Source: a virus (Duplodnaviria > Heunggongvirae > Uroviricota > Caudoviricetes). From it: a DNA stretch of 64,000 nucleotides. Shown piece by piece: positions 1 to 49,109 of the stretch; position 1 is the first letter of the stretch, and the number at the start of each line of letters is the position of its first letter. The position numbers and the translations under genes were made by a program. The stretch spans positions 24,286 to 88,285 of IMG/VR virus record IMGVR_UViG_3300032167_000002. One strand, written 5' to 3'. The notes below the pieces were generated by a model. It had not been told where the DNA came from and searched no databases. It was given only the letters and a program-made list of their open reading frames with translations.

Positions 1-172
1 CAGCATCGAACTTGCAAGAACCAGTCTCGAAAGTCTCCTTGATAGCCTCGAACATCTCTCTCTTAGTAATCTTTTCCATAATTTGCACCTATACCTTTCA
101 AAAATTTATTTATTTCGTAAGGCTTTCTTTCTTTACCTTACATATATATTATATCATATTTTTTTGAAAAAA

Positions 173-1888
173 TCAATAGACGATTTTCCCGAGTAGGTCA
201 ATACGCTCTTCATCGCTCTTTGTGGCTTGCATTTGCTTTAGCCACTCGATGGTGCGTCGACTCAAATTGCCGGCATTGAAGCCGTCCTCAGTAACATTGC
301 GGATGTCAAATGCTTGGCGTCTATTACCCCAGCTATCTCTAACATCATACAACTGACCGAATAGAGGTTCATACTCTTCCGGATGGTTCAAACAATCTTC
401 ACAGATAGATACATAGAAGTTGTAATTAAATCCATCACGAATTTCTTCGTTTTCAGTATCTGCAAACTGAAGATAAATGTGTGCAACGCAATCATTTCTA
501 TGATGGTCGCCGCAAACCTCACATTCACTCAGTTCATTGTGGTAACACCAGTCGCAGGCGATATAATCGTCGTCAACTGTATAGGACTCATCATATGAGC
601 TGTGCCAGTCGCCGCAGAAATCGCAACGCCAGTGTCCGTCACACGCTCTGCACTGTACAACATGAGCATCGACCTCGTCAAGCTCAATAATATCGCCGCA
701 GCCAGTGCAAACTGCAGGTCCAGAGAAGTTGCAAGAATAATGGTCATCATCTTCAATCTTCTGGTCTGCCACATATGCTAAACGATAATCATAGACATCA
801 TTGTACATATAATTACAGTAGAAGTTGAAACGAATGTGTTTATCCTTGACAGTGTTCCAGCTGTCATTTTTCAGCTGAATAGTTTCTTCGGGATAAGGTC
901 CATATCCCGGAATCTGAGTCATCAAATCTCGAATCCATCTAATCGCTACACCCTGCAAATCATCGCTGATGTAAGGATACTGACGATTTCCAAGAATGAC
1001 TTCTCTTGTTACGATGTAAAGCTGACGCCAACGCTTACTATTCCAGTTACCGCCGGGAGTCCACATAGGCTCCTTGGACTCAACATATGCCACGATGACA
1101 CAAGGAGAGTTCATCATTTCGATGGTTCCCAGTCTGTAATCGCCAGGTTCGTCCATCCAGCTCATACAAGAGGTCCAGCCGCAGTTGTTATCACTCATAG
1201 TGATAAAATCAAGCGGGTGAATAGACAGGCAAAGATTACCTTTAATCTGCTTCTGGTTTAGAACTTGAGAATGTGCCTGTCGGAACAGCTCATATCCAGA
1301 AGACTTTTCTAACGGCCCGCAGCACTCTGTTTCGCCATCAGTGTAGTAGCAGCCACAACCGCTGCAGTACATGATGGGGAGTTCTACATTAAGAGCCGCC
1401 GCAATCTTACCAAGCATTTTAACAGCTTTGCAGTTAGCATTAACCACAAGAGGTCGTCCATCCTTAGTAAACTTGCCAGGGATTGTGAAACCAGGACCGG
1501 GATAAATATTGTCAACCAACATATCCCAATCTTCAACAAAGGACTTGAGGCGATAAGTCATATCAATATCGCCCATCTCGTTGCCGATATGTCGAGCAGC
1601 ATCCTTATAGGCAGAAATAAAGTTACGAATCATCTGGTGTCCGTTGTTTAAAGCGGAATACATATCATTGGACAGTTCATCTTTTGGCTTAACTAAACGA
1701 ACTTCCTTTTTTACGATAAACTGCTCTCCGAACGCCCGGAAGAACGGTTCTTTATTTTCGTCCCAAAAACGAAGGAAATATCCCATTTTGTCTAACGGAA
1801 GAGTTCCGTTACCTTCATCACCGTAGTGAGAAATATAAGACTTAAATTGTGACTTATCTTCGTCCGGGAGCCTTTCAAATATACTCAT
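173..1888 (-). CDS. Hypothetical phage protein with C-terminal Cys-rich (zinc-ribbon) repeats, 571 aa
   Basis: Long ORF with SD; multiple CxxC pairs (CTGC, CRAC, CDFC, CDWC, CEVC, CEDC). Confidence 0.8.
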   Translation of the reverse strand: MSIFERLPDEDKSQFKSYISHYGDEGNGTLPLDKMGYFLRFWDENKEPFFRAFGEQFIVKKEVRLVKPKDELSNDMYSALNNGHQMIRNFISAYKDAARHIGNEMGDIDMTYRLKSFVEDWDMLVDNIYPGPGFTIPGKFTKDGRPLVVNANCKAVKMLGKIAAALNVELPIMYCSGCGCYYTDGETECCGPLEKSSGYELFRQAHSQVLNQKQIKGNLCLSIHPLDFITMSDNNCGWTSCMSWMDEPGDYRLGTIEMMNSPCVIVAYVESKEPMWTPGGNWNSKRWRQLYIVTREVILGNRQYPYISDDLQGVAIRWIRDLMTQIPGYGPYPEETIQLKNDSWNTVKDKHIRFNFYCNYMYNDVYDYRLAYVADQKIEDDDHYSCNFSGPAVCTGCGDIIELDEVDAHVVQCRACDGHWRCDFCGDWHSSYDESYTVDDDYIACDWCYHNELSECEVCGDHHRNDCVAHIYLQFADTENEEIRDGFNYNFYVSICEDCLNHPEEYEPLFGQLYDVRDSWGNRRQAFDIRNVTEDGFNAGNLSRRTIEWLKQMQATKSDEERIDLLGKIVY

Positions 1889-3599: not shown

Positions 3600-3868
3600 T
3601 ACCCCATAGAGAAATGACCCGCTCCGAAGTGTTTGAAGTAATCAAACAGGTTTACTTCGGTGCTTTCGCCGCAGTCTTCGCAATGAGCTTCGAAAGTCAG
3701 CTCCACATAAGGATACTCATCTTTCAGAGCAGTCAGAGCCTCGGCCGCAGCCTTCGCCAGCTCATTGAAACGCTTTTCCTTACGATGCATCTTTTCAAAG
3801 TGGATAGCCTTTTCCAGAGCCTCCAGCTCGTCCCAAGACATATCAATGAAATCTACATTCTTACACAT
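3599..3868 (-). CDS. Hypothetical protein
   Basis: Start set at the ATG behind the GAAAGGATTGATACT leader; CxxC near the C-terminus. Confidence 0.7.
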   Translation of the reverse strand: MCKNVDFIDMSWDELEALEKAIHFEKMHRKEKRFNELAKAAAEALTALKDEYPYVELTFEAHCEDCGESTEVNLFDYFKHFGAGHFSMG

Positions 3869-4033
3869 AGTATCAATCCTTTCAAATGTGATGCGGTTTT
3901 GGATATTATTCTGGCGAGACCGCAAACTCCCAGGGGGATAGGTTTTGTCATTTTGGATTACCTGCCCACAACCTCACTAGCCAGTTTTACGACTCCATCT
4001 GCTGTCGGTCAAGATACAAGACATATTACATAA

Positions 4034-4113
4034 CGTCGCTCTAACCAGTTGAGCTACTGGGCCATGTGGCGACCCAGGCAGGACTCGAACCTGCAACCCC
4101 CGGCGTGACAGGC
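4034..4113 (-). tRNA. tRNA-Asp(GTC)-like gene in circularly permuted order (3' part, CAT linker, 5' part)
   Basis: Minus strand reads GCCTGTCACGCCGGGGGTTGCAGGTTCGAGTCCTGCCTGGGTCGCCA (4113-4067), CAT, then GGCCCAGTAGCTCAACTGGTTAGAGCGACG (4063-4034). The two parts sum to a 77-nt cloverleaf. Confidence 0.75.
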
Positions 4114-4218
4114 AAATTGAAATTGCTGTTAATGTCTTTCTTTATCTTACATATATATTATATCATATTTTTTTATAAAAATCAAAGAGAACTCTTTTCG
4201 CCAGGTGGCTGGCTGTCC

Positions 4219-4936: not shown

Positions 4937-5119
4937 TTATTCCTCCTCAATCATAGCTTCACAGACGGGGCAAATCATACCGACGCTGATATAGGGATAA
5001 TCACACTTGTAAATAGGCTCGCCACATTCGGGGCACTCGAAGAACTCTTCATCCCAGTCCACGTAAGCACCGAAATCTCTCTCAACAAAAGTTGCTACAT
5101 ACTGCCAACTCCATACCAT
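4937..5119 (-). CDS. Small zinc-ribbon protein
   Basis: CPECG...CPVC; GAAAGGAAATGATA leader. Confidence 0.7.
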   Translation of the reverse strand: MVWSWQYVATFVERDFGAYVDWDEEFFECPECGEPIYKCDYPYISVGMICPVCEAMIEEE

Positions 5120-5218
5120 ATTTATCATTTCCTTTCTCTTTCACTTTCTATATATATTATATCATATTTTTTTATAAAAATCAAAGAAGCCTACTAGCAT
5201 CTAGTAGGCTTCTTATCT

Positions 5219-7078: not shown

Positions 7079-7179
7079 TTCCTTTCTGAACTTTTCTTAT
7101 CCTTTACTTTCTATAAATATTATATCATATTTTTTTATAAAAATCAATAGACCCTCTGAAAACCAGAGGGTCTATTTTT

Positions 7180-47939: not shown

Positions 47940-49109
47940 ATGGCTGAAGGTATTATTTTTGGTGGACATTTATTGGATAAAGATACTTTTATTCAAATAT
48001 TTGAAGAATGGTATAATGAAAAAAATCAAGAATTTTATCACGATTTAGTAATATTAAAAGATGAAATATCTCAAATGTATACTATGGAATTAAGAGAGAG
48101 TCAGTCTCATCCAGGAGTATGGAAAAATGCTATGAGACGTCAGTCATCTTATAGTGCAAAAAAGATATATGAAAGATGGGAATAGATTCAAAAAAAATAT
48201 TTTGGTAATAATGCTGTTACCTTAATTGCTATTACTAAATTTGGAGAAAAAGAATTGACTTGGTCCTAGAATATAGAAGAAGCAAGTGTAATGACTGAGG
48301 GTGGTATTAATGTTACTAAAACTCAATTAAATACGGCAGTTGGTTCTTTGGATAAAGATTTAGCTGCATATGCGGCCGCTCAAGAGATTTAGAATTTTTT
48401 TAGACGACATTATAGTGATATGTGTAATCAACTTTCTGGCTATAAAATGAATAATACAGATGCTCAATTATTACATAAAACAATTTCTTCAAAATCTCCT
48501 TTGTATTAGTCTAGACATGAATCTTTTACTGGACGTAGTTATGGAGAAATTATTTTTGCTTCTTAGGGCAATGCCGAAGGTAAATAGTTAGATGCTTTTA
48601 TGAATCATGTGGCTCAATACAATAAACAATTATTTGGTTTAATGTCTGCTAGTGCTGTTAATAGTAATTAGCTTGTAAATTTAAAAATAGATGACCACGG
48701 TGGATTTTCAGGGATTTTTAGTTCTCCACAAGTAGTATAGCCTTGGTTATTAGCATCATTAAACTCAGCTAGTTGGTTGACAGGAGGAGACGTTGTTGTT
48801 ATTGATGAGTCTGGAGCCGTAATTTATAATATTTAGATTAAATCAACATTAGCAGATTCAGGTAAAAACTTTGAATTAGCATTAACAAGACTTGAGAGTT
48901 TAATTAATAGACTTATTAAAAGAATGGAAAGAATGCATGAAAATCCAAGATTAAAACCTAAGTCTTTAGCTAATATAATGTATAAGTCTTTAAAAACTAC
49001 TAGTAGCAATGATGTTGCTAAAAGCGAATCTTTTATGGAGACTGAAGCTTATAATACTGTGCGTAAAAACTTAAATTTAGCTCCAATCAATATAAAGTTT
49101 AATGTATAA
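47940..49109 (+). CDS. Hypothetical protein, 389 aa (9 in-frame TAG)
   Basis: Hand translation shows no TAA or TGA between ATG 47940 and TAA 49107-49109. Confidence 0.7.

What the first reader, a model, noticed from the sequence alone, without database searches (positions are those of the whole stretch)
3905..4140. Two tandem stem-ACAGCA-insert-stem RNA elements, one enclosing the permuted tRNA
Seen (minus strand): element 1 opens AAGACAT-TA-ACAGCAA (4138-4123), contains the permuted tRNA and closes with the exact complement ATGTCTT (4024-4018). Element 2 follows at once: GACCG-ACAGCA (near 4010-4000), about 75 nt with internal hairpins (AGTCG/TGGCT; GGGCAGGT/ACCTATCCC), then CGGTC closing the stem. 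The true start of the next gene is 3868, so about 250 nt of promoter-driven non-coding RNA lies here. Inference: the shared stem-plus-ACAGCA frame could be an undescribed processing or circularisation signal that releases RNA cargo.
Basis: partly seen in the sequence, partly recalled or inferred. Interest (0 to 1): 0.78.

Follow-up and report, generated by a model that had tools for sequence, protein, structure and literature searches.

The report
Phage Y-RNA-like tRNA mimic, one real
The first element is a genuine small phage RNA: a tRNA look-alike held in a conserved "stem plus ACAGCAA" handle that recurs next to genes for a Ro60-shaped RNA-binding protein in many phages. The second element only resembles it by chance-level features.

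Summary
Element 1 (window 4138-4018, minus strand) is real. It has its own sigma-70 promoter and is a sub-threshold match to Rfam YrlA (41.9 bits against a cut-off of 69). It carries the exact signature [A/U]AG-N7-CAGCAA ... 3' arm-G, found 22 times in this record and 124 times in 80 related contigs, always on one strand. An orthologue in another phage and a strain variant show compensatory changes in the handle, D stem and T stem.

The handle sits beside DUF2828+DUF7788 genes in 10 of 12 cultured phage genera tested. That protein models as a Ro60 ring. The RNA lacks the canonical GNCGAA Ro-binding motif, and the phage has no TROVE or RtcB gene. I read it as a variant Y RNA, with the handle as a protein dock rather than a circularisation signal.

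Element 2 (4010-3918) is not supported:
- It fails every invariant of the family.
- Its 5-bp stem is expected by chance in about 85% of cases.
- It folds no better than shuffled sequence.
- My covariance model does not score it.
- It is absent from the orthologous locus.

This scan has already noted the same handle family on other DNA (32 findings in at least 30 genomes). I found no paper describing it.

The parts
4157..4185 (-). Sigma-70-type promoter (-35 TTGATT, 17-nt spacer, TG-extended -10 TATAAT). Predicted transcription start is near 4150-4146.
   Evidence: 10 of 12 consensus matches. The same roughly 50-nt promoter consensus recurs more than 60 times in the record. The G006 orthologue has the same promoter.
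4018..4138 (-). Element 1: Y-RNA-like small RNA, made of an ACAGCAA handle plus a YrlA-type tRNA-like module.
   Evidence: Rfam RF02553, 41.9 bits, E 9.8e-8, full model. Family signature. Model R1 top hit. 86%-identical orthologue with compensatory changes.
4132..4138 (-). Handle 5' arm, AAGACAU.
   Evidence: Pairs with 4024-4018. The orthologue has AAGACAC/GUGUCUU, a U-A to C-G change. There are 40 distinct 7-nt arms among 161 copies.
4123..4131 (-). Spacer UA plus the conserved ACAGCAA motif. CAGCAA begins 8 nt after the invariant G.
   Evidence: C, G, C, A, A are invariant in 136 of 136 unique copies, and the fixed position was not forced by the pairing criterion.
4078..4094 (-). T-arm mimic, GCAGG-UUCGAGU-CCUGC.
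   Evidence: Rfam alignment. A strain variant changes 4093 C>U and 4079 G>A together, turning C-G into U-A.
4057..4077 (-). Acceptor-like stem closed by a loop: CUGGGUC, then an encoded GCCA, then CAU, then GGCCCAG.
   Evidence: 4062 G>A turns G.U into A-U in a variant. The loop (4064-4066) varies while GCCA is kept.
4038..4054 (-). D-arm mimic, GCUC-AACUGGUUA-GAGC.
   Evidence: Rfam alignment. The orthologue has ACUC...GAGU, a G-C to A-U change.
4017..4024 (-). Handle 3' arm AUGUCUU plus the invariant following G.
3918..4010 (-). Element 2: GC-rich leader with a 5-bp GACCG/CGGUC closure and ACAGCAG. Not supported as a family member. It is part of the 5' leader of the ORF that starts at 3868.
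   Evidence: No homologue found. Absent at the orthologous positions.
3602..3868 (-). Downstream 89-aa ORF of unknown function, co-transcribed with the RNA region. AAAGGA lies 9 nt before the ATG.
   Evidence: An RNA-library contig spans 3771-4115.

Best explanation
Element 1 is a promoter-driven small non-coding RNA of a phage family that works like a Y RNA.

Shown: its two ends pair in a 7-bp helix whose sequence covaries. An unpaired ACAGCAA follows at a fixed distance, and together these form a handle. The interior is a tRNA mimic with a T arm, a closed acceptor stem carrying an encoded GCCA, and a D arm, but no anticodon arm, as in bacterial YrlA.

Inferred: the handle docks the RNA onto the phage's own Ro60-fold protein (DUF2828+DUF7788), in the way the GNCGAA/CGAA bulge docks canonical Y RNAs onto TROVE-type Ro60. 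The tRNA-like module would then present the particle to tRNA-handling enzymes or to an exonuclease such as PNPase, serving RNA surveillance or repair during infection. RNase P may cut the acceptor loop and leave a two-piece RNA, as reported for Mycobacterium smegmatis YrlA.

Element 2 is not a second copy. It is a lineage-specific, unexplained leader of the next gene.
For: Family membership:
- Signature and counts.
- A covariance model trained on other contigs finds element 1. It also gives 17 hits at E<=1 in 13 foreign loci, all on the DUF2828 gene strand.

Selection on structure:
- Compensatory changes in the handle and D stem in the G006 orthologue.
- A compensatory change in the T stem, and G.U to A-U in the acceptor, in a strain variant.

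tRNA mimicry:
- YrlA full-model match, E 9.8e-8.

Protein partner:
- DUF2828 is present in this record.
- In 49 related loci, all 101 frames lie 0-6 kb upstream of that gene on its strand.
- In 12 cultured genera there are 23 stem-enclosed CAGCAA sites within 450 nt of the gene on its strand (10 of 12 loci), against 0 on the other strand.
- The Enterococcus phage gene directly after three tandem frames is DUF2828+DUF7788.
- The AF2 model's top 13 PDB matches are all Ro60/TROVE rings, E 3e-7 to 2e-4.

Precedent:
- A TROVE-type phage Ro60 binds phage Y-like RNAs through a CGAA motif (PMC12135203).
- YrlA mimics tRNA and can be cut by RNase P (PMC4201824).
Against: - No binding data exist; the RNA-protein pairing rests on gene neighbourhood only.
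- This copy is not next to the gene. It lies about 10 kb upstream of the nearest tRNA/frame array, and the DUF2828 genes in the record are at 198.8-199.7 kb and 400.8-402.3 kb.
- The structure model is of moderate quality (pLDDT 72.5, TM about 0.5).
- The handle lacks the canonical Ro-binding motif, and the Rfam score is below the curated cut-off.
- 62% of family members carry no tRNA-like cargo, so the tRNA mimic is not essential to the family.
- RNA evidence is limited to low-depth metatranscriptome contigs, which may contain DNA.
Confidence: 0.6

Rival explanations
1. Processing or circularisation signal: the stem plus ACAGCA(A) directs cleavage and ligation that release or circularise the enclosed RNA.
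For: - Frames sit in polycistronic tRNA arrays and can enclose complete tRNAs.
- The conserved termini AAG...CUUG(U) resemble the mapped mature ends of Dictyostelium Class I RNAs, AAG and CUGU.
- The encoded GCCA in the acceptor loop suggests action by tRNA-end enzymes.
- DUF2828 neighbourhoods in other phages hold RNA ligases, an RtcB-like ligase and a CCA-adding enzyme.
Against: - There is no bulge-helix-bulge geometry.
- No RtcB in this record.
- No back-joined contig in four runs (weak evidence, contigs only).
- The conserved motif lies inside the RNA, not at a junction.
- Most cargos are short AU-rich sequence with nothing obvious to release.
- The idea does not explain the strict linkage to the strand and neighbourhood of the Ro60-fold gene.
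Confidence: 0.12
2. Canonical YrlA: the RNA is an ordinary Y RNA that hijacks the host's TROVE-type Ro60 (Rsr).
For: The best Rfam hit is YrlA, with the full model aligned. Some gut bacteria encode TROVE proteins; the control genome Bacteroides thetaiotaomicron is positive.
Against: - No GNCGAA/CGAA motif anywhere in the 5' part.
- The score is 27 bits below the gathering cut-off.
- No TROVE gene in the record.
- The same handle occurs in phages of Enterococcus, Listeria, Staphylococcus and others, always with DUF2828.
Confidence: 0.08
3. tRNA decoy: the tRNA-like module soaks up a host tRNA-targeting nuclease or tRNA-modifying enzyme, and the handle only stabilises the RNA.
For: The T, D and acceptor mimicry is conserved with compensatory changes.
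Against: There is no anticodon arm, which is the usual target of anticodon nucleases. Most family members have no tRNA-like part. The idea does not explain the invariant ACAGCAA.
Confidence: 0.1
4. Element 2 is a decayed or divergent second handle RNA, so the locus really is a tandem pair.
For: - It starts 7 nt after the G that follows element 1's 3' arm.
- Tandem frames do occur in this family (L089 and L091; Enterococcus, Listeria, Staphylococcus and mycobacteriophage).
- Its arms keep GAC.../...GUCU-N-G, as in the consensus.
- It shows no changes among strains, but these strains are 97% or more identical.
Against: - It fails A1, the N7 spacing, the final A of CAGCAA and the G after the arm.
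- CAGCAG sites show no excess of enclosing stems on the family strand compared with the other strand.
- Fold z-scores are positive.
- No model hit.
- No homologue anywhere I searched.
- The G006 orthologue of element 1 is followed by 21 nt and then a new promoter.
Confidence: 0.15

Closest known systems
YrlA-type bacterial and phage Y RNAs bound by Ro60/Rsr (Rfam RF02553; Chen et al. 2014, PMC4201824)
   Same: - A small RNA whose 5' and 3' ends pair.
- The interior mimics the tRNA T arm, a closed acceptor stem and the D arm, in that 'permuted' order.
- The acceptor loop could be cut by RNase P.
- The associated protein has the Ro60 fold (HEAT ring plus vWA).
   Different: - No GNCGAA(N)G motif; a fixed ACAGCAA next to a 7-bp helix takes its place.
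- Scores below the Rfam cut-off.
- The candidate partner is a DUF2828+DUF7788 protein, not a TROVE (PF05731) protein.
- This copy is not within 4 kb of the protein gene.
Thermus phage phiLo Ro60 with Yrl1/Yrl2 (PMC12135203; PDB 9KOP, 9L5Y)
   Same: A phage-encoded Ro60-fold protein with phage-encoded Y-like RNAs upstream of its gene. The 9KOP and 9L5Y structures are among the best structural matches to the DUF2828 model.
   Different: phiLo uses a TROVE-type protein and a CGAA bulge motif. Its RNAs are not reported as tRNA mimics with an ACAGCAA handle.
Class I RNAs of dictyostelid amoebae (Rfam RF01414; Kjellin et al. 2021, PMC7919456)
   Same: - A short terminal stem that covaries.
- An unpaired motif containing ACAGCAA directly 3' of the 5' arm. 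The Rfam consensus is GaUcuC-CUUACAGCAAU...GagAuC-UG.
- An AAG start and a CUGU-like end.
- A variable interior.
   Different: - Only 16-17 bits against a cut-off of 41.5.
- The motif sits 2 nt further from the conserved G.
- Class I RNAs are 42-65 nt, eukaryotic, and reported as unique to Dictyostelia.
- Their known binder is the RRM protein Rnp1A.
- They have no tRNA-like cargo.
Circularly permuted tRNA genes (Cyanidioschyzon merolae type; from my own knowledge)
   Same: The 3' half of a tRNA-like sequence (T arm, acceptor 3' strand, CCA) precedes the 5' half (acceptor 5' strand, D arm).
   Different: There is no anticodon stem-loop and no bulge-helix-bulge at the leader-trailer junction. 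It occurs in a bacteriophage, and ARAGORN calls nothing. It cannot decode.

Membership tests
YrlA (Rfam RF02553) | Score at or above the curated gathering cut-off (69 bits) | tested here: not met
   41.9 bits, E 9.8e-8, full model 1-114. No family reaches its gathering score in the window.
YrlA (Rfam RF02553) | tRNA-like module: T arm, closed acceptor-like stem, D arm | tested here: met
   Aligned with high posterior probability. Compensatory changes in the T and D stems.
YrlA (Rfam RF02553) | GNCGAA(N0-1)G motif near the 5' end (proposed Rsr contact; PMC4201824) | tested here: not met
   No CGAA in 4150-4100 on the minus strand. ACAGCAA occupies that place.
YrlA (Rfam RF02553) | Encoded within about 4 kb of a TROVE-type Ro60 gene, on the same strand | tested here: not met
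   No PF05731 match in the 402-kb record.
YrlA (Rfam RF02553) | Bound by Ro60/Rsr in vivo | not testable with these tools
   Needs immunoprecipitation or EMSA.
ACAGCAA-handle phage RNAs (defined in this scan, unpublished as far as I could find): element 1 | [A/U]AG start; covarying helix of at least 6-7 bp; CAGCAA exactly 8 nt after the G; 3' arm followed by G | tested here: met
   Model R1: 28.8 bits, top hit of the window.
ACAGCAA-handle phage RNAs: element 2 | The same four features | tested here: not met
   UUG start, N5 spacing, CAGCAG, 5-bp stem followed by U. No R1 hit at E<=10. The stem is at chance level.
ACAGCAA-handle phage RNAs | Co-location with a DUF2828(+DUF7788) Ro60-fold gene, on the same strand | tested here: inconclusive
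   Met for the family, and the gene is present in this record. This copy, however, lies about 10 kb upstream of the nearest array and far from the gene.
Dictyostelium Class I RNA (Rfam RF01414) | Score at or above 41.5 bits; 42-65 nt; 11-nt motif at the family's spacing | tested here: not met
   No hit on element 1. The only two hits in the record (16.7 and 16.1 bits) do both fall on short handle RNAs.
Permuted or split tRNA gene | A complete cloverleaf, including the anticodon arm, after joining the ends; a bulge-helix-bulge processing motif | tested here: not met
   ARAGORN finds 0 genes in the window. The joined ends form the handle helix plus ACAGCAA, not an anticodon loop.

The most novel reading that the evidence does not exclude
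The ACAGCAA handle is the docking signal of a second, unrecognised Ro/Y-type ribonucleoprotein system, made of DUF2828+DUF7788 Ro60-fold proteins with ACAGCAA RNAs. It runs parallel to the TROVE/CGAA system and is spread across phages of many bacterial phyla. The enigmatic Class I RNAs of social amoebae would be its eukaryotic counterpart. The window's free-standing, separately promoted copy, far from the protein gene, would show that these RNAs act in trans.
Probability: 0.35. Interest if true: 0.8.

Novelty: new variant of a known kind. Interest (0 to 1): 0.62.

Why it matters
Y RNAs and Ro60 are a conserved RNA-surveillance pair, but their bacterial and viral range has been tied to TROVE proteins and a CGAA-type motif. 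Here a different handle (a helix plus ACAGCAA) and a different protein family with the same fold appear linked in hundreds of cultured phages, including those of Listeria, Staphylococcus, Enterococcus, Bacillus, mycobacteria and the Felix O1-like group.

If the pairing is real:
- It assigns a function to a widespread 'hypothetical' or 'RNA-binding' phage gene.
- It explains many odd 'tRNA fragments' in phage tRNA arrays.
- It offers a testable lead on the partner and mechanism of the Dictyostelium Class I RNAs, which have been open questions since their discovery.

For annotation, it also means this locus should not be called a permuted tRNA gene.

Tried and rejected
- ARAGORN on the window: no tRNA or tmRNA.
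- Rfam at gathering thresholds: nothing.
- TROVE (PF05731) and RtcB (PF01139) in the record: none.
- Homologues of element 2: blastn against cultured phages gave only 19-22-nt chance matches. A pattern scan of IMG/VR found 0. Five related roughly 190-200-kb genomes had no match beyond element 1. There was no similarity within the record or in the 80 DUF2828 loci.
- Orthologous positions: the second genome copy and the relative L010 go straight from promoter or gene to the next ORF. L015 starts only 50 nt upstream of the 89-aa ORF, so it tells nothing.
- Read laying: only contigs were available, so RNA ends, strand and abundance could not be read. The listed joints belong to the repeated promoter or to other handle RNAs. 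No circular joint appeared, which is not proof of absence.
- The lower helix I saw by eye (AAGAUA 4146-4141 with UAUCUU 4016-4011) is not conserved in the G006 orthologue, so I dropped it.
- The 'anticodon-like' pairing ACGCC/GACGU is not maintained in G006. UGUC/GACG is an alternative, and this is left open.
- Joining the two ends of the record does not restore the DUF2828 reading frame, so I make no claim of circular adjacency.
- A second R1 hit in the window (48884-48992) has no CAGCAA and lies in probable coding sequence.
- The pairing percentages are circular, because the sequences were chosen for pairing. I use for significance instead.

Full report
**What is there**

On the minus strand, a strong sigma-70-type promoter (TTGATT-17-TATAAT with TG, 4185-4157) is followed by about 280 nt without a credible ORF, even if TAG is read as Gln. 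There is no terminator before the ATG at 3868. ARAGORN finds no tRNA or tmRNA in the window, and no Rfam family reaches its curated threshold.

**Element 1 is a YrlA-like tRNA mimic**

In an E-value scan, the best hit by far is Rfam YrlA (RF02553) at 4011-4122: 41.9 bits, E 9.8e-8, full model, below the 69-bit cut-off. The aligned core contains:
- a T arm (4094-4078);
- an acceptor-like stem closed by a loop (4077-4057), with an encoded GCCA;
- a D arm (4054-4038).

This is the 'permuted' order that defines the tRNA-like module of bacterial Y RNAs (PMC4201824). There is no anticodon arm. Instead the two ends pair (AAGACAU/AUGUCUU), and ACAGCAA follows the 5' arm. The YrlA hallmark GNCGAA(N)G is absent. 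The 402-kb record has no TROVE gene and no RtcB gene.

**The frame is a real, recurrent signature**

The record holds 22 copies with exact arms on the minus strand. Their cargo is a permuted tRNA-like module, a whole tRNA, or short AU-rich sequence.

- *Test from the stem side.* I took all [A/T]AG-initiated helices of at least 7 bp followed by G and asked which hexamer sits at offset +10. The answer is CAGCAA 22 times on the minus strand. The next hexamer occurs 4 times, and CAGCAA occurs 0 times on the plus strand.
- *Test from the motif side.* 77% of ACAGCAA sites on the family strand have an enclosing stem of at least 7 bp, against 25% on the other strand.
- *Related contigs.* In 80 contigs fetched through the DUF2828 protein there are 124 such frames on the gene strand and 0 on the other. 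Permuted control motifs give 0-2.
- *Pooled consensus.* Over 137 unique copies the signature is [A/U]AG-R-C-N2, 3 nt, CAGCAA, cargo, N2-G-Y-C-U-[U/A], G. There are 40 different arms, and the first pair switches perfectly between A-U and U-A.
- *Covariance model.* A model built from 20 short copies taken from other contigs ranks element 1 first in the window (4140-4015, 28.8 bits, E 0.002).

**Element 1 is under selection for structure**

A 185-kb relative (G006) carries an 86%-identical orthologue behind the same promoter. The differences are:
- U-A to C-G in the handle;
- G-C to A-U in the D stem;
- changes in loops and linkers.

A strain variant seen in a metatranscriptome contig changes 4093 and 4079 together (C-G to U-A in the T stem) and turns a G.U in the acceptor into A-U. 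The GCCA is kept while the 3-4 nt after it vary.

**Element 2 is not a second copy**

- It reads UUG-N5-CAGCAG with a 5-bp stem followed by U. The family invariants are A at position 1, N7 spacing, CAGCAA and a following G.
- A stem of at least 5 bp within 30-200 nt is found for 85-89% of all CAGCAG sites on either strand, and CAGCAG shows no strand excess.
- Its fold is no more stable than shuffles (z +0.39 and +0.84). The GACCG/CGGUC helix appears in the minimum-energy fold only when the sequence is cut exactly at those ends.
- The model gives no hit at E<=10.
- I found no homologue.
- At the orthologous place in G006, element 1 is followed by 21 nt and then the next promoter. In the second genome copy and in another relative there is no RNA region at all.

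The segment is invariant among strains, but these are 97% or more identical, so that says little. It may be a decayed handle (I give this about 15%) or simply the leader of the 89-aa ORF. Its function remains unexplained.

**What the handle goes with**

Earlier notes of this scan pointed to DUF2828, and I tested this myself.

- PF11443 is present twice in the record. One copy is full-length and runs off the record end. The other is a 316-aa version without DUF7788.
- In 49 related loci with full flanks, all 101 frames lie 0-6 kb upstream of the gene on its strand, and none lie downstream.
- The protein occurs in 694 cultured phage records.
- In 12 genera I counted CAGCAA with an enclosing stem of at least 7 bp within 450 nt of the gene. 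There are 23 on the gene strand, in 10 of 12 loci, and 0 on the opposite strand. Background is 7 in 78.7 kb. The 10 loci include phages where no tRNA array is nearby (mycobacteriophage MiniLon, Campylobacter CP30A, Fusobacterium Fnu1, Aeromonas 4_4572).
- In Enterococcus phage vB_OCPT_CCS1, three tandem frames, two of them with YrlA-like cargo, directly precede a DUF2828+DUF7788 gene.
- The gut-phage model finds 17 hits at E<=1 in these foreign loci, all on the gene strand.
- An AlphaFold model of the protein (pLDDT 72.5) matches, over its full length, only Ro60/TROVE rings in the top 13 PDB hits. These include Deinococcus Rsr, Xenopus Ro with Y RNA, and Thermus phage phiLo Ro60 (E 3e-7 to 2e-4, TM about 0.5).
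- The neighbouring genes in other phages are often RNA ligases, an RtcB-like ligase, a CCA-adding enzyme or phosphoesterases.

**How it most likely works**

*Shown:*
- a promoter-driven, structurally constrained RNA with a conserved handle and a tRNA mimic;
- family-wide linkage of the handle to a Ro60-fold gene.

*Inferred:*
- The handle is the docking site for that protein. This is analogous to the 5'-strand motif of canonical Y RNAs, which Ro60 contacts directly (PMC4201824), and to the CGAA bulge of phiLo Yrl RNAs (PMC12135203).
- The tRNA-like module recruits tRNA-handling enzymes or an exonuclease.
- RNase P may open the acceptor loop, as in M. smegmatis YrlA.

**Comparison with Class I RNAs**

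The Rfam consensus of Dictyostelium Class I RNA is a 6-bp terminal stem followed by CUUACAGCAAU and ending ...CUG. The paper reports an AAG start, a CUGU end and a covarying stem, and states that the class is unique to Dictyostelia. The only two RF01414 hits in the 402-kb record fall on two short handle RNAs, but at 16-17 bits against a cut-off of 41.5. This is a striking resemblance, not membership.

**Novelty and literature**

Searches of the library I could reach for DUF2828, ACAGCAA, and phage Ro60 or Y RNA found no description of this RNA family or of DUF2828 as its partner. Some GenBank records already label the protein 'Ro-like RNA binding protein'. The same handle family has been noted before by this scan on other DNA and elsewhere in this genome.

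I class element 1 as a new variant of a known kind (a Y RNA / Ro60-type particle). The 'tandem pair' reading is not supported.

Noticed in passing
whole record G000 (the window is G000:24286-88285): The 402-kb record is two colinear genomes of about 200 kb at roughly 65-84% nucleotide identity, laid end to end. Each has its own minus-strand tRNA array in the same gene order (81 tRNAs in all). Relatives with terminal repeats are 190-201 kb. It looks like a chimeric or concatenated assembly rather than one 402-kb phage. Joining the two ends of the record does not restore the cut DUF2828 gene.
   Followed up: partly
window 4135-4186, with more than 60 other places in G000 (for example window 123-187, 1903-1967, 5117-5192, 7093-7150): A promoter block of about 50 nt, with consensus TTGATTTTTATAAAAAAATATGATATAAT...GTAAGATAAAGA, is repeated throughout the genome. 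It includes a conserved transcribed leader that overlaps the 5' flank of many handle RNAs.
   Followed up: partly
G000 18190-18079, 12791-12676, 216461-216347, 213983-213872 (minus strand): Some handles enclose sequences that ARAGORN calls as complete tRNAs in normal order: Arg-CCU, Asn-GUU (twice) and Gly-UCC. If RNase P and RNase Z process them, the handle would be left as a two-piece RNA.
   Followed up: no
G000 2265-2436 and 206027-206176 (minus strand): There are four tRNAs with a CUA anticodon, which ARAGORN labels 'Pyl'. This is consistent with TAG being read as an amino acid in this phage, as earlier notes of the scan say.
   Followed up: no
L009 2760-2815, 2945-3000, 3125-3185 (Enterococcus phage vB_OCPT_CCS1): Each of the three tandem handle RNAs is preceded by a second conserved module of about 55 nt: a short palindromic hairpin, then GTTCC...GGAAC enclosing an ACCT-loop-AGGT hairpin. 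It is unannotated and has no Rfam match.
   Followed up: no
L107 1650-1925 (G006, downstream of the element 1 orthologue): Two further copies of the promoter drive about 250 nt of apparently non-coding sequence, including a GAGAGAAAACCTCAC hairpin-like stretch, before the next ORF. These may be additional small RNAs.
   Followed up: no
G000 198791-199741 and 199919-201106 (L012 931-1881 and 2056-3246, minus strand): One of the two DUF2828 genes is a 316-aa version that lacks the DUF7788/vWA half. Directly upstream of it lies a 396-aa GmrSD-N plus HNH endonuclease gene, possibly a mobile insertion.
   Followed up: partly
L097 6848-8059; L104 1940-3196 and 8914-9449; L106 9116-9404; L096 6107-7348; L103 3654-4832: In cultured phages the DUF2828 gene sits among RNA-repair genes: an RtcB-like ligase (Listeria LP-124), an RNA ligase and a CCA-adding enzyme (Pectobacterium CBB), Rnl2 (Aeromonas 4_4572), and metallophosphoesterases (Bacillus, Staphylococcus).
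   Followed up: no
window 3602-3868 (minus strand): The 89-aa ORF after the RNA region has only a weak, sub-threshold Pfam hit (T4_baseplate, E 0.004). Its only homologue in IMG/VR is an identical copy. The orthologous slot in the second genome copy holds a different ORF. The whole promoter-RNA-ORF unit looks like a lineage-specific cassette.
   Followed up: partly
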